Below are positions 962 through 11,002 of a stretch of DNA of 18,319 nucleotides, one piece after another (the first letter of the stretch is position 1; each line of letters opens with the position of its first letter). Below the pieces are notes generated by a model that was given only the letters and a program-made list of their open reading frames with translations, was not told the origin of the DNA and searched no databases. The DNA comes from a virus. Its lineage: Duplodnaviria > Heunggongvirae > Uroviricota > Caudoviricetes. A program made the translations under genes and the position numbers. The stretch lies in the IMG/VR virus record IMGVR_UViG_2695420565_000013, one strand, 5' to 3'.

Positions 962-1291
962 CTATGCCACGACCTGTTCAAAATCTGCCGTTATGGTTAC
1001 CCACAACGCCCCCACGCTTGCCGACCATTTACGACAAACCACCCTGATCGGCTTCCAGTCATAAGGTGGCGTCCACTGAAATGCGCGGACGCCACCGTGC
1101 CGTTCCAGAAAGGCTTTTAAAGATGGGTGTTCACATTTACGAACACGTATCGTCACGCTGTAAATCGACAACTGGTTATTCAGTCCCGCCGCACGACGCT
1201 GTTCATAACCATCGCCCAGCTTCACTGTCACCACTTTCGGCTCTGATACCACATTCATATCCGGGCGCACTTTCCAGTGAAATGTCTCCAT
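962..1291 (-). CDS. M: Minor tail protein M (lambda gpM-like, 109 aa)
   Basis: METFHWKVRPDMNVVSEPKVV...FQWTPPYDWKPIRVVCRKWS...ADFEQVVA parallels lambda gpM (MKTFRWKVKPGM...EFEQVVN). The start ATG overlaps the upstream stop as TAATG. Confidence 0.9.
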   Translation of the reverse strand: METFHWKVRPDMNVVSEPKVVTVKLGDGYEQRRAAGLNNQLSIYSVTIRVRKCEHPSLKAFLERHGGVRAFQWTPPYDWKPIRVVCRKWSASVGALWVTITADFEQVVA

Positions 1292-2898
1292 TACCGATAT
1301 GCTCCACTTAACCGACCACCATCACGGGCCTGCTGTTGCATAAAGTCCGCTGCCGCTTTTTTCCCAAGGTCATAAACCACCTTCAGGGCAGCCGGACCTA
1401 TCTGCCCGTTCGTGCCATCGTTATTGATCTCGATGTTGTACTGCGGGGCAAACATCGCCATACCTGAACCACCAATATCCGCCACAACCCCCAGCTTACC
1501 GTCAGCACCACGACGCAGTGGCAGAATGGCTTCAGGTCCAGCTTCCCCCATCACACCCGCGCCTTTTGCAAAAGCAAAAAACGTCGGACGGTTAACCACC
1601 GTGCCACTGTAACGACTCAAATCAGCAGACTGATAAATCCCCCCATTGGCATTCAGGGAAAGGCTGCTGAGATCAAATCCCAGTACACTGCCAATCCCTT
1701 TTATCGATTTCATCATGGTTGCCTGCGCCAGGATTTTCGCCATATCTGACAGCACCGAAGAGGTGAAGGATTTGAAGTTGAGTTTGCCGGTAGTGACAAA
1801 AGTTGCCAGGCCATTTCCCATGTTGCTGAAGGCTGATGAGAACACCTGTTCTGCTGTTCCTGCCGTATTGTCTGCATCCACGGTAAAATCCTGAAATGCA
1901 CGCAGGACTCCGTTTTTCCAGTTACCCTGCACAACTTCAAGCTGTTGCCAGTAACGGCGATTCTCATTCAGTTGTCGGTTCAGGCTCTCCGTCAGCGCCT
2001 GCTCGGCCTTTCTGTAGTCATCCGTGTTATATGTCCCTTTCTGCTCACTATCCCGCCTCAACTGCTCCAGCTGTTGCTGGTATTTCTGGCGAAGACTCAG
2101 TTGTACCTGATATCGCTGCCGCTGCTGATCACCCATACCCACCGTGGCGATATCCAGGTCATGTTGCTGACGCTGAGCGCGCTCTTCTTCAGCCAGTTGA
2201 CTGGTCAGCTGAATTGTTTTTTTCTTCAGATCGTTGAGTGCCGTTTGTTTCTGAAGCTCCTGCTGTTTTACATCCAGCAGCGTCAGTGCCTGCATCAGTT
2301 CATCTTTACGGGCCAGCACACTCTTTTCATCTGCCGTCAGTTTTTTCCCGTCCAGATCGCTGATGCGCTGCTGCAGAGCCAGAAGCTGTTTATGCGCTTC
2401 TGTCATCTTTTCAGTGGCAATGCCTGCTGACTGTCTTGCAGCAGCAATCTGTCCTTCCACCTGTGCCTGTTGCTGACTGTACTGCAGCAATAACCGGGTG
2501 GCCTCATCATTACGGGTTTCGCGTGTTTTTTTCTTACCGGATGCCAGGGCTTTCTCGTAACGTTCATTTTCACGTTGTATCGCCGCATCCCTGACAGCCT
2601 GGTCGGCGTACTGCATGGCATTAATACGCGCAATTTCACGCTGATGTCGTGCTGCTTCCGTTTCATTCATCCGGTTCAGTGCAGCATTTTCAGCATTACG
2701 TCGTTTCTGTTGCTCCTGATAATTCCGCTCTGCCTGCTCTTTTGCATCCTGCAAATCCTTCTGGCGTTTTTTCTCCTGAAGATCGTTAAGACGCTGCTGA
2801 TCGTATTCAACCTGAGAAGATGATGCGTCTTTTCGCCCGCGATACTTTCTCCTGTAAAGCGGTAATCTGTTCATCCAGCGAGTCTTCACGACCAATAT
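1291..2898 (-). CDS. H: Tail tape measure protein, C-terminal portion; in +1 frame relative to the N-terminal portion (frameshifted, possible pseudogene)
   Basis: 534-codon open frame with a long coiled-coil (Q/E/K/R-rich) region and a Gly-rich C-terminus, ending by overlapping the M start. It has no plausible start of its own: the frame opens just after a stop at 2899-2901. Confidence 0.7.
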   Translation of the reverse strand: MLVVKTRWMNRLPLYRRKYRGRKDASSSQVEYDQQRLNDLQEKKRQKDLQDAKEQAERNYQEQQKRRNAENAALNRMNETEAARHQREIARINAMQYADQAVRDAAIQRENERYEKALASGKKKTRETRNDEATRLLLQYSQQQAQVEGQIAAARQSAGIATEKMTEAHKQLLALQQRISDLDGKKLTADEKSVLARKDELMQALTLLDVKQQELQKQTALNDLKKKTIQLTSQLAEEERAQRQQHDLDIATVGMGDQQRQRYQVQLSLRQKYQQQLEQLRRDSEQKGTYNTDDYRKAEQALTESLNRQLNENRRYWQQLEVVQGNWKNGVLRAFQDFTVDADNTAGTAEQVFSSAFSNMGNGLATFVTTGKLNFKSFTSSVLSDMAKILAQATMMKSIKGIGSVLGFDLSSLSLNANGGIYQSADLSRYSGTVVNRPTFFAFAKGAGVMGEAGPEAILPLRRGADGKLGVVADIGGSGMAMFAPQYNIEINNDGTNGQIGPAALKVVYDLGKKAAADFMQQQARDGGRLSGAYR

Positions 2899-4345
2899 TC
2901 ATGGCCGCATCCCAGAAACGACTCCACAAATCAGACAGATACTTCAGCGTACTGCCAAGCGCATTGAGGTTATTATCAATATCCGCAGTACGCCGACCGG
3001 TTTCCTCTGCCAGTGCAGACATGGCTATCCGTGCAGCATCACTGGACCGTCCCTGATCCCCAAGGACACGTATCTGCTCAAGCTGAGTGGCAGTAAGAAA
3101 ATGCAGCTCATTGTCCAGAGCCTTCGCGGCATTTACAGGATCATCCTTCAGCCGCTTAAACTGATTTATGGTATCGCTGACCGACTGGCCAACCGATCGC
3201 TCCATCTGTGCGGCAGCTCTCGCCACCATACCGATATCGTTTCCACGAAATGCACCACTCCCCACCACCTGCGCCAGCGCACCGGCTGCAGCATGTTGCG
3301 TGATACCATTCCCGGAAATAGCACGACTGAGCGTCCACAGCTGCCCGGCAGTGACTCCGGCATAATGCCCCGTCAGCGACAACTGGCGGTTAAATTCTTC
3401 CCCCTCCTTCTGACCGTCATACCAGGCTTTACCCAGACCATAGACGGCCGCGGCAATACCGCCAATAACCCCGCCAAGCATCATGCCTTTCGGTGACATC
3501 AGTGTGTCTATCCATCCGGCACGGTTAGCCAGCGTTATCCCGGATCCCCTCAGCGCCCCTAAATTGCCGCGGGCCAGTTCACCTATCAGAACGCCTATCT
3601 CCTGGCGGGCTGCTGCACTTTTCAGACCCAGCGAATGCGTGGCTTTTCCTGCCTGCTCCATTTTGCGGATATACACTTCTGCAGCACTGCTTACCCCCAG
3701 CTGGGCTGCCTTGGCACGAAGCAACTCAGAAGATGAAAGATTCTGGCGGGTTGCCTGCTCTTTAAGCTGACGGATAAACGCCACTTTCTGTCGGGTAGCC
3801 TCTTCCTCAGCCTGTGTAAGAACACGGGTTTTCGCAGTAACCTCAGAAATCAGCGCCAGATAATCCTGCTGACCAATCCCGCCACTGTTTCTGGCCTGTC
3901 GGATCTGCTGCTGAATACGCTGTAATTCCTGCAGCCCCGCACTGGCCTGTTTCACACTGTCAATCTGACGATAAAACGCAGCAGCCGCTTTATCCTGAGC
4001 CTCCGCCAGAGCCATGGCCTGCGCCTGTTCCTCGCGCATTTTCTGGCTCAGCGCCTCCATGCGCTGGCGGGTTTTCTCCACCTCGCGGGCCATGCGTTCA
4101 TGAGCCTGTGCGTTCTTCTCCACCGTCTGCGCATGGACGGATGCGGCTGTTGCAGCCGAAGAAGTCGCCTGCGTTGTCTGCCGGGCGGCCTGAGTCTGAC
4201 GCTCCATAAAACGCTGCATACGGGCAGACGACCGTTCTGCATCGCTGGCGGCACCATTCAGAAGGTTTTTGATACGGGGAATTTCATTTTTAAACTCTGC
4301 CGCATCAATCCCCAAATCAATGACCAGGTTGGCTATCTGGTCCAT
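2807..4345 (-). CDS. H: Tail tape measure protein, N-terminal portion (ends at TGA 2807-2809, 89 nt into the other frame)
   Basis: ATG at 4343-4345 preceded by GGAGGT (7 nt spacer). The product MDQIANLVIDLGIDAAEFK... has a coiled-coil N-terminus and a Gly/Ala-rich hydrophobic segment (GMMLGGVIGGIAAAVYGLG) typical of tape measure proteins. Position between G/T and M matches lambda H. Confidence 0.75.
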   Translation of the reverse strand: MDQIANLVIDLGIDAAEFKNEIPRIKNLLNGAASDAERSSARMQRFMERQTQAARQTTQATSSAATAASVHAQTVEKNAQAHERMAREVEKTRQRMEALSQKMREEQAQAMALAEAQDKAAAAFYRQIDSVKQASAGLQELQRIQQQIRQARNSGGIGQQDYLALISEVTAKTRVLTQAEEEATRQKVAFIRQLKEQATRQNLSSSELLRAKAAQLGVSSAAEVYIRKMEQAGKATHSLGLKSAAARQEIGVLIGELARGNLGALRGSGITLANRAGWIDTLMSPKGMMLGGVIGGIAAAVYGLGKAWYDGQKEGEEFNRQLSLTGHYAGVTAGQLWTLSRAISGNGITQHAAAGALAQVVGSGAFRGNDIGMVARAAAQMERSVGQSVSDTINQFKRLKDDPVNAAKALDNELHFLTATQLEQIRVLGDQGRSSDAARIAMSALAEETGRRTADIDNNLNALGSTLKYLSDLWSRFWDAAMNIGREDSLDEQITALQEKVSRAKRRIIFSG

Positions 4346-4679
4346 AACGCACACCTCCGGAAATACCTTCCCCAAGATGCATCAGTTCTTCGTCCGTTCG
4401 CTCCGGTATCCCGTTCTCTTCCGGTAAAAGGCTGAAATCAGCCACCGCAGCATCACTGCTGCCGGACACCATTCTCACGATCAATGCCTTCAGCGAGGCA
4501 AACTGCGCATCCATCCACACATCACTGAAGCTCTGCATCCGGAAATAATCGCCCCACTCACCAAGCTCAGTGGCCGACATTTCCGACAGCATCCGCCGCC
4601 AGTCTGCCCGCCGGAACTCCCGGGCAAGCCGCATGACAAACTGCATTTCCCGCGTCAGGACTTTTCCGGCGTCAGCGCC
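4317..4679 (-). CDS. T: Tail assembly chaperone T domain, probably made only as a G-T fusion by -1 ribosomal frameshift near the end of G
   Basis: The -1 frame relative to G is open from 4679 to 4317 and overlaps the last codons of G. Its internal ATG at 4646 has no usable Shine-Dalgarno. The arrangement mirrors lambda G/GT. The likely slip site is the A AAG lysine codon (mRNA CCGGAAAAGUCC; + strand 4658-4669). Confidence 0.55.
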   Translation of the reverse strand, partial: GADAGKVLTREMQFVMRLAREFRRADWRRMLSEMSATELGEWGDYFRMQSFSDVWMDAQFASLKALIVRMVSGSSDAAVADFSLLPEENGIPERTDEELMHLGEGISGGVRYGPDSQPGH

Positions 4680-5044
4680 TCATGCTCATCATCCCCGGCA
4701 TTATCAATGGCCCCCATACCGCTCAGCGACAGAACCATCTCCGCCCCCGCCCCCAGGGCATCATACGACCATGTTGTAATAACGGATGCGCAAAGCGTCT
4801 CTACATCCTTAGACTGATCCGCATTCCACAGTGAGCGGGAAACCAGCCAGGCATTGATATCCATCCCCATCCGCAGAAAAGCAATCTGTCGTTCAGCCTC
4901 CGGCAGTTCTCCCTCCCCGGCATCAAACTTTGCCGTTCGCTGCTGAACAAACGCCAGATATTCAATTCTCTGCAGCCCGGACAGCTCACTGAGCACCACG
5001 GACTGTTTTTCATAATTAAACGTGTCCTGTTTCAGAAACATCAT
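4655..5044 (-). CDS. G: Tail assembly chaperone G (lambda gpG-like)
   Basis: MMFLKQDTFNYEKQSVVLSELSGLQRIEYLA... versus lambda gpG MFLKTESFEHNGVTVTLSELSALQRIEHLA...; located between V and the tape measure gene. Confidence 0.85.
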   Translation of the reverse strand: MMFLKQDTFNYEKQSVVLSELSGLQRIEYLAFVQQRTAKFDAGEGELPEAERQIAFLRMGMDINAWLVSRSLWNADQSKDVETLCASVITTWSYDALGAGAEMVLSLSGMGAIDNAGDDEHEALTPEKS

Positions 5045-5057
5045 GTTCTACACCTGC

Positions 5058-5081
5058 AAAAAAGCCCCGGATAACCGGGGC
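5058..5081 (-). terminator. Intrinsic terminator between major tail gene V and G
   Basis: Minus-strand RNA reads GCCCCGG-UUAU-CCGGGGC (7 bp GC stem, 4 nt loop) followed immediately by UUUUUU. It sits 20 nt after the V stop and 14 nt before the G start. Confidence 0.6.
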
Positions 5082-5101: not shown

Positions 5102-5845
5102 TTAACCTGCGGCGCTGACAGTCACCGCAGCCACAGCCACAAAATTCCCGTCAGCGGTCATGCCCACAATGCTGACACTGCCCTGCTTCACGCCTTTCAC
5201 CGTGGCCACAAGCCCGTTCAGGGTCACCGTGGCAGTCTGTGGATCTGACGAATGCACACTGATCGCTTTGTCACTGGCTCCGTCAGGTTTTACTGTAAAG
5301 GTCAGCGTGGTGGTTGCTCCCACATTGACACTGGCAGATGCCGGTGCCACCGTCAGCCCGGTAACGCCCACGATTTCAGTGCCTTCCTCTGCCAGATACG
5401 GACGCCCCACACCGCTGATTTTCACTGTGCGGGTCATCACGTCTTTTGAGGCAATGGTTTTACCCAGTGAACTCAGCCAGCCACGGAAAACATCAACAGT
5501 ACCGTTGGGATATTTGATACGAAAAGCGCAGACTTCACCGGAGTCGAACAACTGAACCAGTTTTTTCTGCCCGCTGTCCCCCGGACGCCAGGCCAGCGTC
5601 GCCGAAGTATCACCGACTGATTTCTGCCCCTGGGTTGTCGTTTTCCAGTCTGCATCTTCATCATCGAGATAAGTGTCATCTTCTGCATCAGCGGTCATTT
5701 CGCCAGGTTGCAGATCCTTCACCATCGCAAGACGCAGCCAGTCAGTGTCCGATAAAGGGTTCGCAAACGCATCGCCCTTGCCGGTATACATCCAGAACGT
5801 CGTTCCCGCACCTTTCGTTTTTGCCAGTGGATTTGGTGTGGTCAT
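5102..5845 (-). CDS. V: Major tail protein V (lambda gpV-like) with C-terminal Ig-like (Big_2-type) domain
   Basis: From ATG 5843-5845 (AAGGAGG 5 nt upstream): MTTPNPLAKTKGAGTTFWMYTGKGDAFANPLSDTDW...YLDDEDADWKTTTQGQKS...NGTVDVFRGW... closely parallels lambda gpV. The ORF-track extension upstream (MIMRWPP...) overlaps U and is rejected. Confidence 0.9.
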   Translation of the reverse strand: MTTPNPLAKTKGAGTTFWMYTGKGDAFANPLSDTDWLRLAMVKDLQPGEMTADAEDDTYLDDEDADWKTTTQGQKSVGDTSATLAWRPGDSGQKKLVQLFDSGEVCAFRIKYPNGTVDVFRGWLSSLGKTIASKDVMTRTVKISGVGRPYLAEEGTEIVGVTGLTVAPASASVNVGATTTLTFTVKPDGASDKAISVHSSDPQTATVTLNGLVATVKGVKQGSVSIVGMTADGNFVAVAAVTVSAAG

Positions 5846-5855
5846 TACCACCTCC

Positions 5856-6257
5856 TTAATTCGTGTACGTGATCTGGTACGTGATTTCCGCCATCGCCCA
5901 GGTGGCCATCTCATTATCACGTTGATAGTTAAAACCGAGTGGGATCAGGGTGTCGATGAGTCCGGAAAGTGCTGGTACATCATTCAGGGCCGGGAAAATG
6001 GTGCTCTCCATCCACATATCCAGCTCTGAATCCGGTGCCTGTGCCCGGATGAAGACAGCAATATGCAGAACAGCCTGCCAGTCATCTTCATCCGTCATTT
6101 TTCCGGTGTACTGAGCATCACTCAGCCACACCGCCACGGCAGGCAGTTCCTGCGCATCAACAAATGCCGGAAGCCCGTCAAAAAACGTGGCGCTGTCTCC
6201 ACACTGTTCCCGAAGGCGTGCCAGTACGACCTGGCGGATTTGTGTATGTCGGTTCAT
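5856..6257 (-). CDS. U: Tail terminator protein U (lambda gpU-like)
   Basis: MNRHTQIRQVVLARLRE...ATFFDGLPAFVDAQELPAVAVWLSDAQYTG...ELDMWMESTIFPALNDVPALS parallels lambda gpU (MKHTELRAAVLDALEK...ATFFDGRPAVFDEADFPAVAVYLTGAEYTG). ATG at 6255-6257 overlaps the Z stop as ATGA; an upstream ATG at 6269 is also possible. Confidence 0.85.
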   Translation of the reverse strand: MNRHTQIRQVVLARLREQCGDSATFFDGLPAFVDAQELPAVAVWLSDAQYTGKMTDEDDWQAVLHIAVFIRAQAPDSELDMWMESTIFPALNDVPALSGLIDTLIPLGFNYQRDNEMATWAMAEITYQITYTN

Positions 6258-7521: not shown

Positions 7522-9480
7522 TTACGCCGTACATTTCACCAGACCGCGGTGATCAACTGGCGCGACACCGGCGTCAATACGCACTTTCGTTGTCACGCCA
7601 TCCACACTGAAGCCCTCCATCTGATCAATATATGGCGTATCCACACCGTTGAGATAAGCCACTTCAATCGTATCGGAGCCTTTTGACGCAGCCAGGTAGA
7701 AGGTGGTCTGGCTGTTATCATCAAGACGAGGCTCTGCAATAACGGTCGCAAAATCTTTCACCGGGTTAATAATACCGGCGTTAATGTCAGCCCCCTTGAC
7801 ACTTGAGGAGCGAATGACCTGGTTAGCAACAGACTCCATCGCCGTCGGTACCAGTACGAACGCAGGACGAATATTCAGATGACGCTCCCCCTCTTTCTGA
7901 ACGCGCATCAACTGGCGGGCTTTATCCAGCGATGCCACATCCATTGCAGCGCTCTCCAGTACGTTTGCATGTTTCGCTTTATCGAACAGACTTACATTAT
8001 CTGTGGAGATTTTCGGGTTAGACGTCAGAATGGCATAAACCAGATCGGCAATAGTGGATTTCGCCGCACGGCCCAGTTTCATCGGGACATCGGTCAGCAT
8101 ATTCAGATCATCATTGATAATGGCCTGACGGGTGATACTGAACAGCTCGCCATAGGTCGCCAGTGCAATAGTGGCCTGTTTATCTCCGGTGGTGACGTAT
8201 TTATATTCCGCCCCTTCACGCACCTGACGCAGAGCACTGAAGCCCCCCATACCCACACGATGGGCAATTTTAAAATCAGACAACTGACCTTTCCGCGTCC
8301 ACTGTTCATAGGTTTCAGGGGCATCTTCCCAGCCCTGCAGAATGGCTTTGTTCGCAACATCCAGCAGAATATTACCGAAGTCAGACGTACTGTGTGTGAA
8401 CGCCGCACCGACCATCTGCATCGGGTTATAACCGGAAACCCCAATACCCCGTTCAGTTAGTGACATACGGGCATATTCACGCAGGGTCATCCCGTTGTAG
8501 ACATTATCACGTTCGGTTTTTTCAAATCCGGCACGCGCCATCAGCGCCTGGCGAATCCCGTCCCCCACAAAATTACCGTTACCGGCATAAATATGAGCCG
8601 GGGTATTTTTATTGGATGGCGTGGACTCGCGCCCCATCTCGTTCAACAGCTTTTCACGGGCCTGCTCCAGCGAACATTCAGGATCGGCAAGACACTGAGC
8701 CTGCAGCGTCTGATAACGCCCGCCAAACATGGCAAACAGATCATTAATACCGTTTACACGCGCTTTTTGCTCTGCCAGTACCTGCGCACGGATGCTGTTT
8801 TCATCCACCACGGGTGCTGCTGCCTGCACTGGCGTCCAGGAGGCTTCAGATTCATTATCCTGTACGCGTGGAGCACTGTTGCGTGGCGGAGTAATCATGT
8901 TTCGAATGGATTCCGGCATCTTTTTAAATTCCTCTGTACGTTTTGACTGAATACATGCCATTGCCTTAACGGCTGGCGTTACCTGATCAGCAAATCCATG
9001 TGCCAGACATTCGGCACCGGACATCCAGGTCTCATCCGCCAGCATGGCAGCAATTTCATCGGTGGTTTTCCCGGTTTTCTGTGCATAAGCGGGTAACAGA
9101 ACCGCCTCAACTTTATCGAGCAGGTCGGCATAGGTGCGCATGTCCTCCGCATCACCGCCCGTAAAGCCAAATGGTTTATGAATCATCATGAAGGTGTTTT
9201 CCGGCATAATGACCGGGTTTCCTACCATCGCAATGACCGACGCCATTGACGCCGCCACACCGTCGACATAAACGGTAATGGACGCACCATGTGTTTTCAG
9301 CGCATTAAAAATGGCGATGCCTTCAAAGACATCGCCACCCGGTGAATTAATATGGAGATTAATGTGGGTGATATCGCCCAGTGCATTCAGATCACTGATA
9401 AACTGCTTCGCTGTAACACCCCAGAAACCAATCTCGTCATAAATATAAATATCCGCGTCACTCTGGTGACCAGCCTGCAT
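7522..9480 (-). CDS. Prohead protease (ClpP/S14-like) fused to HK97-fold major capsid protein (about 652 aa)
   Basis: The N-terminal ~200 aa have ClpP-like motifs (IYIYDEIG..., INSPGGDVFEG..., GVAASMASVIAMVG, MMIHKP). A long central linker and a C-terminal ~300 aa capsid-like region follow. Start placed at ATG 9478-9480 (13 nt after the portal stop) rather than the ORF-track start, which overlaps the portal; the start is uncertain. Confidence 0.75.
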   Translation of the reverse strand: MQAGHQSDADIYIYDEIGFWGVTAKQFISDLNALGDITHINLHINSPGGDVFEGIAIFNALKTHGASITVYVDGVAASMASVIAMVGNPVIMPENTFMMIHKPFGFTGGDAEDMRTYADLLDKVEAVLLPAYAQKTGKTTDEIAAMLADETWMSGAECLAHGFADQVTPAVKAMACIQSKRTEEFKKMPESIRNMITPPRNSAPRVQDNESEASWTPVQAAAPVVDENSIRAQVLAEQKARVNGINDLFAMFGGRYQTLQAQCLADPECSLEQAREKLLNEMGRESTPSNKNTPAHIYAGNGNFVGDGIRQALMARAGFEKTERDNVYNGMTLREYARMSLTERGIGVSGYNPMQMVGAAFTHSTSDFGNILLDVANKAILQGWEDAPETYEQWTRKGQLSDFKIAHRVGMGGFSALRQVREGAEYKYVTTGDKQATIALATYGELFSITRQAIINDDLNMLTDVPMKLGRAAKSTIADLVYAILTSNPKISTDNVSLFDKAKHANVLESAAMDVASLDKARQLMRVQKEGERHLNIRPAFVLVPTAMESVANQVIRSSSVKGADINAGIINPVKDFATVIAEPRLDDNSQTTFYLAASKGSDTIEVAYLNGVDTPYIDQMEGFSVDGVTTKVRIDAGVAPVDHRGLVKCTA

Positions 9481-9493
9481 CCTGAACCAGGAA

Positions 9494-11002
9494 TTATTCT
9501 TCGGACTGGTCGTCGGTGTGCTGCGGCTCCTGTCGTTTCGTTGCGGCACTACTGCCTCCTTTATCACTGGCCGGATCGGTATCAAATACCAGATCCAGCT
9601 TGCGGTTTTCATCAATTTCGGCCTTGCGCCGACGTTTGACATCATCCGGATTACGACCACCAGCACGTACCCAGTCTGATTCTGTCGCCGCTCCACCACG
9701 AATCTGGATTTTCCAGGCCTCAGCCTCCTTAACAGGGTCAATCCACGGCATCACTGGTCCGGAATACACCGCGGTATACAGTGAAGAACGGTCAAGATCG
9801 CGGGGTAGCCTGATAACACCGGATGCCACAGCCTGTTTCAGCCATGCACGATACATCGGGCGGGTGACGGCACCAATAAACCAGTCCTGCAGGATCAGGT
9901 AGCCATCAGTGGATTCAACCAGCTCCTGACGCTGGGCGCTGTAAGTGCCGTTATAGTTGCGCGCTGTACTGGAAAAACTCAGACGACTGCCCGCCGCCAC
10001 GGCACGCAACTGACCATTACGAAAAGTTTCAAGGTTAGGATTGGGGCGATCCGACTTCACCATTCCGATTTCTTCGCCGGGTTTCAGATCGTCGTAAATA
10101 ATGCCCGGCTGAATGGTAAGCTCACGTTCATTCTCCTTTCTGCCATTACCATCCGGTTCATAGCTCTGCCCGTCGCCTTTCCGGATGTACATCCCCAGAG
10201 CAGCGGCGATCCTTGCTGCAGTCAGCTCAGAATCTTCATATTCTTTCAGGGCACTGAGGCGGATCAGCACACCGGACAACAAAGACGTCCCGCGCATCTG
10301 GTGCAGACGGCGAACAAATTTAAGATGCAGCATTCGCTCTGCATCCACTTCTTTGGTTTCCATCTGCCGTCCGGATACGGGACGGCTTTTATACACCAGA
10401 TATTTTTCGGGACGCCCCCAGTCATCAACAAACACGCCCTGATTCAGCCTGTTGCTCTCATCACTAGTCATGGGAATAAAGTCCGGCTCGAGCGCCTCCA
10501 GCCAGAAATGAACACCGGCAGAAGGCGCCAGGCTGTTTATGCGCCCGGAAACCATCTGGGCAAACACCTCACCATCGCGCAGCCAGGTACGAAGCATCAG
10601 ACGTTCCAGCATCGGACGGGTAAACTGCCCGGTGACTTCCGGGCTGACAGACCATTCACTCCATCGGGTGCGAATCTCCGCAGCCAGGTCACGGGCAATG
10701 GCCCCATTGCGTAATACCGGATGTGGCTCGACAATAATCCCGTTTTTCCCCACCACCCGTTCTTCCAGCTTGTCAAATACACCAATAACCAGATCGTGGT
10801 TGTTATCAAGGTAACGGGCCTGCTCACGTAACGACACGGCCCCGTACTGGCTTAACTGGTCGGCAGTTCGGTTCTCCCGTCGGGCTTTGTGTGTCCGCGT
10901 CGTTTTTACGGCCTCATAAGCCTGGATCACCGCACGGGAACGCAGCCTTGCCGCTTTCCATCCTGGTGAAAAAACGCCAATCACATCATCAAGAATTGCC
11001 AT
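9494..11002 (-). CDS. Portal protein (502 aa)
   Basis: Large ORF directly after gpW and before the protease-capsid gene. ATG at 11000-11002 overlaps the W stop (TGATG) and is preceded by GAGG (5 nt spacer). The ORF-track GTG start at 11074 would overlap W by 73 nt and is rejected. Assignment by size and synteny. Confidence 0.8.
   Translation of the reverse strand: MAILDDVIGVFSPGWKAARLRSRAVIQAYEAVKTTRTHKARRENRTADQLSQYGAVSLREQARYLDNNHDLVIGVFDKLEERVVGKNGIIVEPHPVLRNGAIARDLAAEIRTRWSEWSVSPEVTGQFTRPMLERLMLRTWLRDGEVFAQMVSGRINSLAPSAGVHFWLEALEPDFIPMTSDESNRLNQGVFVDDWGRPEKYLVYKSRPVSGRQMETKEVDAERMLHLKFVRRLHQMRGTSLLSGVLIRLSALKEYEDSELTAARIAAALGMYIRKGDGQSYEPDGNGRKENERELTIQPGIIYDDLKPGEEIGMVKSDRPNPNLETFRNGQLRAVAAGSRLSFSSTARNYNGTYSAQRQELVESTDGYLILQDWFIGAVTRPMYRAWLKQAVASGVIRLPRDLDRSSLYTAVYSGPVMPWIDPVKEAEAWKIQIRGGAATESDWVRAGGRNPDDVKRRRKAEIDENRKLDLVFDTDPASDKGGSSAATKRQEPQHTDDQSEE

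What the first reader, a model, noticed from the sequence alone, without database searches (positions are those of the whole stretch)
4646..4682. G/G-T programmed -1 frameshift with a non-lambda slip site
As in lambda, a T ORF in the -1 frame overlaps the end of G and has no usable ribosome binding site, so it is probably translated only as a G-T fusion. The lambda heptamer G GGA AAG is not present. Within the overlap window (open in both frames from 4679 to the G stop at 4655) the only obvious slip site is CCG GAA AAG, where tRNA-Lys could shift from AAG to AAA. The efficiency and exact site would set the G to G-T ratio.
Basis: partly seen in the sequence, partly recalled or inferred. Interest (0 to 1): 0.45.

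Follow-up and report, generated by a model that had tools for sequence, protein, structure and literature searches.

The report
Lambda-type G/G-T tail chaperone frameshift
This is the well-known programmed -1 ribosomal frameshift that joins the phage tail-assembly chaperone G to its T extension, here on the heptamer G_GAA_AAG that the phage N15 and phi80 records already annotate as their slip site, so it is real but ordinary.

Summary
On the minus strand, G (5044/5041..4655, Pfam Phage_TAC_2) ends ...CCG GAA AAG TCC TGA. The -1 frame (Pfam Phage_tail_T) is open from 4679 to 4317. The only codon in the 23-nt overlap that can re-pair cognately after a -1 slip is AAG (4663..4661), giving the heptamer G_GAA_AAG at 4667..4661.

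Comparison of 16 lineages fixes the junction at this Lys codon. G is conserved up to P-E-K and then stops. The -1 frame becomes conserved from G-K onwards and aligns without a gap to lambda, N15 and phi80 G-T.

ATG 4646 has no Shine-Dalgarno sequence and is not conserved in relatives, so free-standing T is unlikely.

"Non-lambda" is only narrowly true. The site sits at the homologous position and differs from lambda's G_GGA_AAG by one base. It is identical to the heptamer annotated as "slippery sequence for -1 translational frameshift" in the N15 and phi80 GenBank records. It was the commonest type in my panel (10 of 16 lineages).

I found no supported stimulator, either an upstream SD-like element or a downstream structure.

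The window is an mEp460/cdtI-like E. coli prophage. This G-T module occurs in 1845 of 5426 complete E. coli genomes, and T is annotated there as a separate gene. Verdict: already known, low interest.

The parts
4655..5044 (-). Gene G, the tail assembly chaperone in the zero frame. Homologues begin MFLK, so the true start is probably ATG 5041. Stop TGA is at 4657..4655.
   Evidence: Pfam PF06894 Phage_TAC_2, E 2.8e-40. 99% identical to mEp460 gp11. PGAP names it 'phage tail assembly chaperone G'. SD-like CAGGTG lies upstream, -6.3 kcal/mol.
4661..4667 (-). Slip heptamer G_GAA_AAG. P-site codon GAA is 4666..4664 and A-site codon AAG is 4663..4661. After the -1 shift the pairing is GGA AAA and the next codon read is GTC (4661..4659).
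   Evidence: It is the only site in the overlap that allows cognate re-pairing. CCGGAAAAG is invariant in 8 lineages down to 54% G identity while the preceding ~20 codons are hypervariable. The same heptamer is annotated as the slippery sequence in N15 and phi80.
4658..4679 (-). Stretch open in both frames before the G stop codon: -1 frame codons from 4679, just after the -1 frame TGA at 4682..4680, to the base before the G stop.
4317..4661 (-). T segment, read in the -1 frame from the slip site to its stop. The predicted G-T fusion is join(5044..4661, 4661..4317), 242 aa (241 aa from ATG 5041).
   Evidence: Pfam PF06223 Phage_tail_T, E 5.1e-15. The predicted fusion aligns collinearly, with no gap on the T side of the junction, to the fusions predicted the same way for lambda, N15, phi80 and 12 other lineages.
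4644..4646 (-). ATG used by the database annotations seen for this module (mEp460, PhiR47_1, RefSeq PGAP) as the start of a free-standing T. Probably not a real initiator.
   Evidence: Best anti-SD pairing upstream is -1.1 kcal/mol, against -13.1 for the tape-measure start and -6.3 for G. The codon is Q, I, R or L in relatives, and gene callers pick different T starts.
5102..5920 (-). Major tail tube gene (V homologue), the upstream neighbour that defines the V-G-T-H gene order.
   Evidence: Pfam Phage_TTP_12, E 8e-67, plus Big_2.
2807..4345 (-). Tape measure gene (H homologue), N-terminal part. It is the client of G and G-T. The start is ATG 4345, preceded by GGAGGTG.
   Evidence: Pfam TMP_2, E 1.3e-49. 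SD pairing -13.1 kcal/mol. The frame is broken by an 11-bp deletion relative to mEp460.

Best explanation
G and T form the lambda-type tail assembly chaperone pair of an mEp460/cdtI-like lambdoid prophage.

Most ribosomes translate G and terminate at UGA 4657..4655. A small fraction slip back one base on G_GAA_AAG (4667..4661). tRNA-Lys moves from AAG to AAA, which is cognate. tRNA-Glu either re-pairs from GAA to GGA through a central G:U, or is not involved if only tRNA-Lys slips. Translation then continues in the -1 frame (GTC CTG ACG ...) to 4317 and yields a ~241-aa G-T fusion.

By analogy with lambda, G and the G part of G-T coat the tape measure protein, while the T part recruits the major tail protein. 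Slip efficiency sets the G:G-T ratio.

Shown here: homology, frame geometry, uniqueness of the site, its conservation and the position of the junction. Inferred: that slippage occurs, its efficiency, and which tRNAs move.
For: - Homology: G matches PF06894 and the -1 frame matches PF06223, in V-G-T-H gene order.
- Unique site: the overlap is 23 nt and AAG is its only cognately re-pairing codon.
- G-side conservation: in alignment A1 the G C-terminus P-E-K is nearly invariant, while the ~20 residues before it are hypervariable.
- DNA conservation: CCG GAA AAG NCN TGA is invariant in the window clade and in 7 E. coli/Salmonella lineages down to 54% identity, Fels-1 included.
- T-side conservation: the -1 frame is unconserved and of variable open length (23-83 nt) before the heptamer. 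From G-K onwards it is conserved in all 16 lineages, and the predicted fusions align without a gap on the T side of the junction.
- Prior annotation: N15 and phi80 carry GGAAAAG at the homologous place, annotated as 'slippery sequence for -1 translational frameshift', with a joined gpG-T CDS in phi80.
- Related heptamers at the same place: G_GGA_AAG in lambda, 434, Stx2a, Serratia and Symbiopectobacterium, and A_AAA_AAG in VT1-Sakai.
- No independent start: ATG 4646 lacks an SD (-1.1 kcal/mol) and is not conserved.
- Literature: A_AAG is the most shift-prone tetramer in E. coli (PMC4066793). CGA_AAG sites lacking a canonical XXX are used naturally (PMC5009743). GAA->GGA re-pairing through G:U has been proposed for other tail-chaperone frameshift motifs (PMC10885494).
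Against: - There is no experimental evidence for this phage. None of the annotated records of this module that I opened (mEp460, Ayreon, PhiR47_1, the identical E. coli JE86-ST05 locus) shows a join, and no feature name among the 17 phage hits suggests one.
- G_GAA_AAG is not a canonical X_XXY_YYZ heptamer.
- A_AAG alone was near background in reporters and reached 5.6% only with a pseudoknot (PMC4066793).
- I found no supported stimulator. Downstream MFE z-scores are about 0 to -0.7, the alignment covariation term is unfavourable, and upstream SD-like pairing is no better than background.
- In this particular window the tape measure gene is frame-broken, so the system may no longer be in use here.
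Confidence: 0.87

Rival explanations
1. T is made as a free-standing 109-aa protein from ATG 4646, either by ordinary initiation or by termination-reinitiation after the G stop 8 nt upstream. This is how the opened database records of this module annotate it.
For: An ATG lies 8 nt after the G stop, a distance at which bacterial reinitiation can occur. mEp460, PhiR47_1 and the RefSeq PGAP record annotate T from this ATG; the Ayreon record uses a later start.
Against: There is no SD: -1.1 kcal/mol against -6 to -13 for neighbouring genes. The ATG is replaced by Q, I, R or L codons in relatives, and gene callers choose different starts in each lineage. The -1 frame is conserved for 7 codons upstream of this ATG, starting exactly at the heptamer. 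From established knowledge (Levin et al. 1993; Xu et al. 2013, as summarised in PMC5009743), lambda T is made only as G-T.
Confidence: 0.06
2. The shift happens at the same place but by slippage of tRNA-Lys alone (A_AAG tetramer mechanism, in the A site or in the P site with an empty A site). tRNA-Glu does not re-pair, and the efficiency is lower than lambda's.
For: GAA->GGA is not a Watson-Crick re-pairing. A_AAG tetramers work naturally at CGA_AAG sites (PMC5009743). Ewingella has GCA_AAA followed by a stop, where only tRNA-Lys can re-pair.
Against: The base before GAA is invariantly G in every G_GAA_AAG lineage. That fits selection for GGA in the -1 P site, although it also encodes the conserved Gly of the -1 frame. 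Tetramers alone were near background in reporters. This rival differs from the best explanation only in mechanistic detail.
Confidence: 0.35
3. The fusion arises from transcriptional slippage of RNA polymerase on the A run, not from ribosomal slippage.
For: The site contains a run of four A.
Against: From established knowledge (reviewed in PMC5009743), productive transcriptional slippage needs runs of roughly 7 or more A/T. A run of four A is too short. Lambda, with only three A, frameshifts ribosomally at the same place.
Confidence: 0.01
4. In this genome the site is an inactive relic. The prophage is tail-defective, so the frameshift signal is intact but unused.
For: An 11-bp deletion breaks the tape measure frame at about 2827, relative to mEp460 and E. 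coli JE86-ST05.
Against: The G-T region is 100% identical to loci with an intact tape measure gene (H18). The deletion could be an assembly error. This rival concerns current use, not what the element is.
Confidence: 0.3

Closest known systems
Phage lambda G / G-T programmed -1 frameshift (Levin, Hendrix & Casjens 1993; Xu, Hendrix & Duda 2004, 2013, 2014)
   Same: Same Pfam families (PF06894, PF06223) and the same V-G-T-H gene order. The -1 overlap lies at the end of G. The slip falls at the homologous Lys codon, and the -1 frame product G-K-V... aligns residue for residue.
   Different: The heptamer is G_GAA_AAG instead of G_GGA_AAG, one base apart, so the P-site codon is Glu GAA rather than Gly GGA. 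The G stop comes 1 codon after the heptamer instead of 5. The G parts are 32% identical and the T parts 38%.
Phage N15 gene 14/15 and phage phi80 gene G-T (GenBank AF064539, FN582354)
   Same: Both carry the identical heptamer GGAAAAG in the same frame at the homologous position. Both records annotate it as 'slippery sequence for -1 translational frameshift'.
   Different: The preceding codon is GCG (Ala) instead of CCG (Pro). The stop is 5 codons downstream. G identity is about 31% and T about 40-42%. These lineages have a GC-rich hairpin about 33 nt downstream that is much weaker in the window clade.
A_AAG tetramer -1 frameshift sites in E. coli and Bacillus (IS3; IS1222 G_CGA_AAG; B. subtilis cdd A_CGA_AAG)
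   Same: tRNA-Lys slips AAG->AAA next to a P-site codon that cannot re-pair canonically (PMC5009743; PMC4066793).
   Different: Those in IS elements usually rely on a downstream pseudoknot or an upstream SD. No such stimulator is supported here.

Membership tests
Lambda-like G/G-T tail assembly chaperone with programmed -1 frameshift | Two overlapping ORFs lie between the major tail protein gene and the tape measure gene. | tested here: met
   The order on the minus strand is V homologue 5102..5920, G 4655..5044, T frame 4317..4679, tape measure from 4345.
Lambda-like G/G-T tail assembly chaperone with programmed -1 frameshift | The upstream ORF is homologous to gpG. | tested here: met
   PF06894, E 2.8e-40, covering profile positions 1-123 of 126. 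tblastn finds lambda G at 32.6% identity, E 8e-10.
Lambda-like G/G-T tail assembly chaperone with programmed -1 frameshift | The downstream ORF is in the -1 frame relative to G and is homologous to the T segment. | tested here: met
   PF06223, E 5.1e-15, full profile 1-73. The frame relation was verified base by base.
Lambda-like G/G-T tail assembly chaperone with programmed -1 frameshift | A slippery sequence in the overlap allows tRNA re-pairing in the -1 frame. | tested here: met
   A-site AAG->AAA is cognate. P-site GAA->GGA is near-cognate (G:U at position 2). The heptamer is not a canonical X_XXY_YYZ, but it is the one annotated in N15 and phi80.
Lambda-like G/G-T tail assembly chaperone with programmed -1 frameshift | The slip site and junction are conserved among homologues. 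| tested here: met
   Across 16 lineages all junctions fall at the same Lys codon: G_GAA_AAG in 10, G_GGA_AAG in 4, A_AAA_AAG in 1, GCA_AAA in 1.
Lambda-like G/G-T tail assembly chaperone with programmed -1 frameshift | The T segment has no independent translation start. | tested here: met
   Tested in silico only. There is no SD before ATG 4646 (-1.1 kcal/mol) and the ATG is not conserved. Termination-reinitiation cannot be excluded by sequence alone.
Lambda-like G/G-T tail assembly chaperone with programmed -1 frameshift | A G-T fusion protein is actually produced at a low, fixed ratio to G (about 1:30 in lambda) and is required for tail assembly. | not testable with these tools
   This needs a reporter assay, Western blot or mass spectrometry. 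The 30:1 ratio for lambda comes from PMC5009743.
dnaX/IS911-type -1 frameshift signals with flanking stimulators | An SD-like element lies about 10 nt upstream of the slip site. | tested here: not met
   GAGG sits 10 nt upstream in the window. Anti-SD pairing in the -25..-4 region is no better than background blocks of the same genes: the fraction of blocks as good is 0.38 for the window and 0.06-0.97 across lineages.
dnaX/IS911-type -1 frameshift signals with flanking stimulators | A stable hairpin or pseudoknot lies 5-9 nt downstream of the slip site. | tested here: not met
   MFE z-scores downstream are -0.01, +0.81 and -0.72 for 45, 70 and 100 nt, and -1.16 for the 141-nt context. The RNAalifold covariation term is +1.59 (unfavourable). 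Only a 5-bp hairpin abuts the heptamer, with no spacer.

The most novel reading that the evidence does not exclude
G_GAA_AAG breaks the X_XXY_YYZ rule, yet it was the commonest slip site in my small panel of the gpG/gpT family (10 of 16 lineages) and shows no detectable flanking stimulator. It may work through P-site tRNA-Glu re-pairing on GGA by a central G:U pair, or through a stimulator not yet recognised. Its efficiency, and hence the G:G-T ratio, may differ clearly from lambda's. A measured efficiency for this heptamer would extend the rules for bacterial -1 slip sites.
Probability: 0.2. Interest if true: 0.3.

Novelty: already known. Interest (0 to 1): 0.12.

Why it matters
The practical value lies in annotation. 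This G-T module occurs in 1845 of 5426 complete E. coli genomes and in 17 deposited phage records. In the records of this module that I opened, T is annotated as a free-standing gene, with starts that differ between callers, rather than as join(G..slip, slip..T). The comparison also shows that the one-base variant G_GAA_AAG is at least as common as the textbook lambda heptamer in my panel of this family. Detectors that accept only X_XXY_YYZ will therefore miss it. Biologically it adds nothing new to the established G/G-T mechanism.

Tried and rejected
- Upstream SD-like stimulator, as in dnaX. GAGG lies exactly 10 nt 5' of the heptamer, and several relatives have AGGAG or GAGGTG there. However, anti-SD duplex energies are no better than random 22-nt blocks of the same genes in most lineages. 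Rejected as unsupported.
- Downstream stimulatory structure. Single-sequence folds are not better than shuffles for the window clade. The consensus fold of 8 lineages has an unfavourable covariation term. Rejected.
- Ribosome collision at the slow UGA-C stop (PMC6815119). The stop is only one codon after the heptamer, far less than a ribosome footprint, so a trailing ribosome would not sit on the heptamer. Rejected on geometry; this is inference.
- Natural G-T fusion proteins in the protein database (P0028, P0039). These are internal in-frame deletions seen on single contigs and say nothing about slippage.
- Literature. Xu et al. 2004 is not held. Searches for GGAAAAG, mEp460 and N15/phi80 found no paper that measures this heptamer.
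- The genome-contig scan gave only 11 loci. Diversity had to come from encoding-contig look-ups and phage records.

Full report
**What is in the sequence**

The genes in this part of the window run on the minus strand. The ORF at 4655..5044 (129 aa) ends ...GCG CTG ACG CCG GAA AAG TCC TGA, with its stop at 4657..4655. One base back from that frame, a second frame has a TGA at 4682..4680 and is then open from 4679 down to 4317. Its first ATG is at 4646.

Lambda's heptamer G_GGA_AAG is absent. G_GAA_AAG lies at 4667..4661.

**What the genes are**

- The upstream ORF matches Pfam Phage_TAC_2, the lambda gpG family (E 2.8e-40).
- The -1 frame matches Phage_tail_T (E 5.1e-15).
- The gene before them is a lambda-type tail tube protein, and the gene after them is a tape measure protein.
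- The G-T segment queried (4300..5060) is 99.5% identical to phage mEp460 and 98.9% to phage cdtI. The same segment occurs in 1845 of 5426 complete E. coli genomes.
- None of the annotated records of this module that I opened shows a joined CDS. mEp460, PhiR47_1 and RefSeq PGAP annotate T as a separate 109-aa protein from ATG 4646, and the Ayreon record uses a later start.

**Is the site more than chance?**

The bare heptamer occurs 7 times in the window against 3.2 expected, so its presence alone means little. In-frame A_AAG occurs at 0.45% of codons in the window's genes, so about 0.03 are expected in a 7-codon overlap. Of the codons in the overlap, only AAG gives a cognate -1 re-pairing (AAG->AAA). 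GAA->GGA keeps positions 1 and 3 and would need a G:U pair at position 2.

**Comparative evidence**

I collected junctions from several sources:
- 80 IMG/VR contigs and 11 species genomes;
- six divergent E. coli and Salmonella contigs;
- the phage records Fels-1, phi80, N15, an Stx2a phage, VT1-Sakai, mEp213, ev017, 434 and lambda.

In the G protein alignment, the C-terminal P-E-K is nearly invariant, while the roughly 20 residues before it are hypervariable.

At the DNA level, CCG GAA AAG NCN TGA is unchanged in the window clade and in seven further lineages down to 54% G identity.

The -1 frame upstream of the heptamer is unconserved, and its open length varies from 23 to 83 nt. From the G-K encoded by the shifted heptamer onwards it is conserved in every lineage. 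Fusions predicted at this Lys codon align with no gap on the T side across all 16 lineages: K|VLTREMQFVMRLAREFRRADWRRML in the window against K|VFDGELSFALKLAREMGRPDWRAML in lambda. This places the junction at the Lys codon.

**How different is it from lambda?**

The window's heptamer sits at exactly lambda's position and differs by one base. At this position the 16 lineages carry:
- G_GAA_AAG in ten: the window clade and its E. coli and Salmonella relatives, Fels-1, Superficieibacter, mEp213, phi80 and N15;
- G_GGA_AAG in four (lambda, Stx2a, Serratia, Symbiopectobacterium), and also in 434 and ev017, which were examined but left out of the 16;
- A_AAA_AAG in VT1-Sakai;
- GCA_AAA followed by a stop in Ewingella.

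The N15 record (AF064539) and the phi80 record (FN582354) each carry a misc_feature "slippery sequence for -1 translational frameshift". I read the sequence under it in both, and it is GGAAAAG in both. The "non-lambda" site is thus already on record for this family.

**Independent translation of T**

ATG 4646 has essentially no anti-SD complementarity upstream (-1.1 kcal/mol). The tape measure start has -13.1 and G has -6.3. The codon at that position is Gln, Ile, Arg or Leu in relatives, and gene callers place the T start at different positions in different lineages. Seven conserved -1 frame codons lie upstream of this ATG. Reinitiation after the G stop 8 nt upstream cannot be excluded from sequence alone. 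It is not a conserved feature of the family.

**Stimulators**

Neither kind of stimulator is supported.
- A GAGG lies 10 nt 5' of the heptamer, the spacing seen in dnaX. Across lineages, however, SD-like pairing in that region is no better than in random blocks of the same genes.
- Downstream folding energies in the window clade do not differ from shuffles.
- The consensus fold of eight lineages has an unfavourable covariation term. The only nearby helix is a 5-bp hairpin that abuts the heptamer with no spacer.

**Mechanism**

The most likely mechanism is low-level -1 slippage in which tRNA-Lys moves from AAG to AAA. A_AAG is the most shift-prone tetramer in E. coli (PMC4066793). tRNA-Glu either re-pairs on GGA through a G:U pair, an idea already raised for other tail-chaperone motifs (PMC10885494), or plays no part. 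Sites with a non-canonical P-site codon before A_AAG are used naturally: IS1222 uses G_CGA_AAG and B. subtilis cdd uses A_CGA_AAG (PMC5009743).

The function follows lambda. G and G-T bind the tape measure protein, and the T part recruits the tail tube protein. The ratio in lambda is about 30:1 (PMC5009743).

The efficiency here is unknown. Tetramers alone were near background in reporters, so the true level and any hidden stimulator remain open.

**Verdict**

The feature is a homologue of a textbook system and uses a slip site already annotated in N15 and phi80. It is already known and of low interest. The main practical point is that databases annotate T in this very common prophage module as a free-standing gene.

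Noticed in passing
window 2807..2895, break at about 2827, minus strand: The tape measure gene is split into two ORFs, 2807..4375 and 1291..2895. An 11-bp deletion (TCCCCTGGACG) relative to mEp460 and E. coli JE86-ST05 causes the split, and the frame from ATG 4345 stops after 512 codons. The prophage in this window may be tail-defective, or the assembly may carry an error.
   Followed up: partly
window 5064..5081, minus strand: A terminator-like hairpin, GCCCCGG-TTAT-CCGGGGC followed by T6, lies between the major tail gene and G. The mEp460 and N15 records annotate it as a rho-independent terminator. It may lower G/T/H expression relative to the tube protein.
   Followed up: no
L004 (lambda), L104 (phi80), L105 (N15), L108, L014, L106, L107: about 33-70 nt 3' of the heptamer: A GC-rich hairpin, GGCGCG(~20 nt)CGCGCC, sits inside the T coding region (LAREFGRPDWRA). 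Its folding energy is well below shuffles (z -2 to -4.5) in the lambda and N15-type lineages but not in the window clade. It is too far from the slip site to be a classic stimulator, and its role is unknown.
   Followed up: partly
window 4317..4646 and the homologous loci L001, L002, L003, L005, L097-L103: Database annotations treat T as a free-standing gene, with start positions that differ between records: from a 4-nt overlap with G (start before the G stop) to 75 nt after the G stop. Among the lineages examined, only the N15, phi80 and 434 records mark the frameshift: a joined CDS in phi80 and 434, and a slippery-site feature in N15 and phi80.
   Followed up: yes
window 7522..9741, minus strand: A 739-aa ORF corresponds to the gene that PGAP annotates as 'ClpP-like prohead protease/major capsid protein fusion protein' in the identical E. 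coli locus, and that mEp460 annotates as 'head maturation protease'.
   Followed up: no
proteins P0028, P0039 and P0001 (relatives of window G): A few database proteins join G and T in frame through internal deletions, or carry a duplicated G segment. Each comes from a single contig. They are probably rare deletions or assembly artefacts and are unrelated to slippage.
   Followed up: partly
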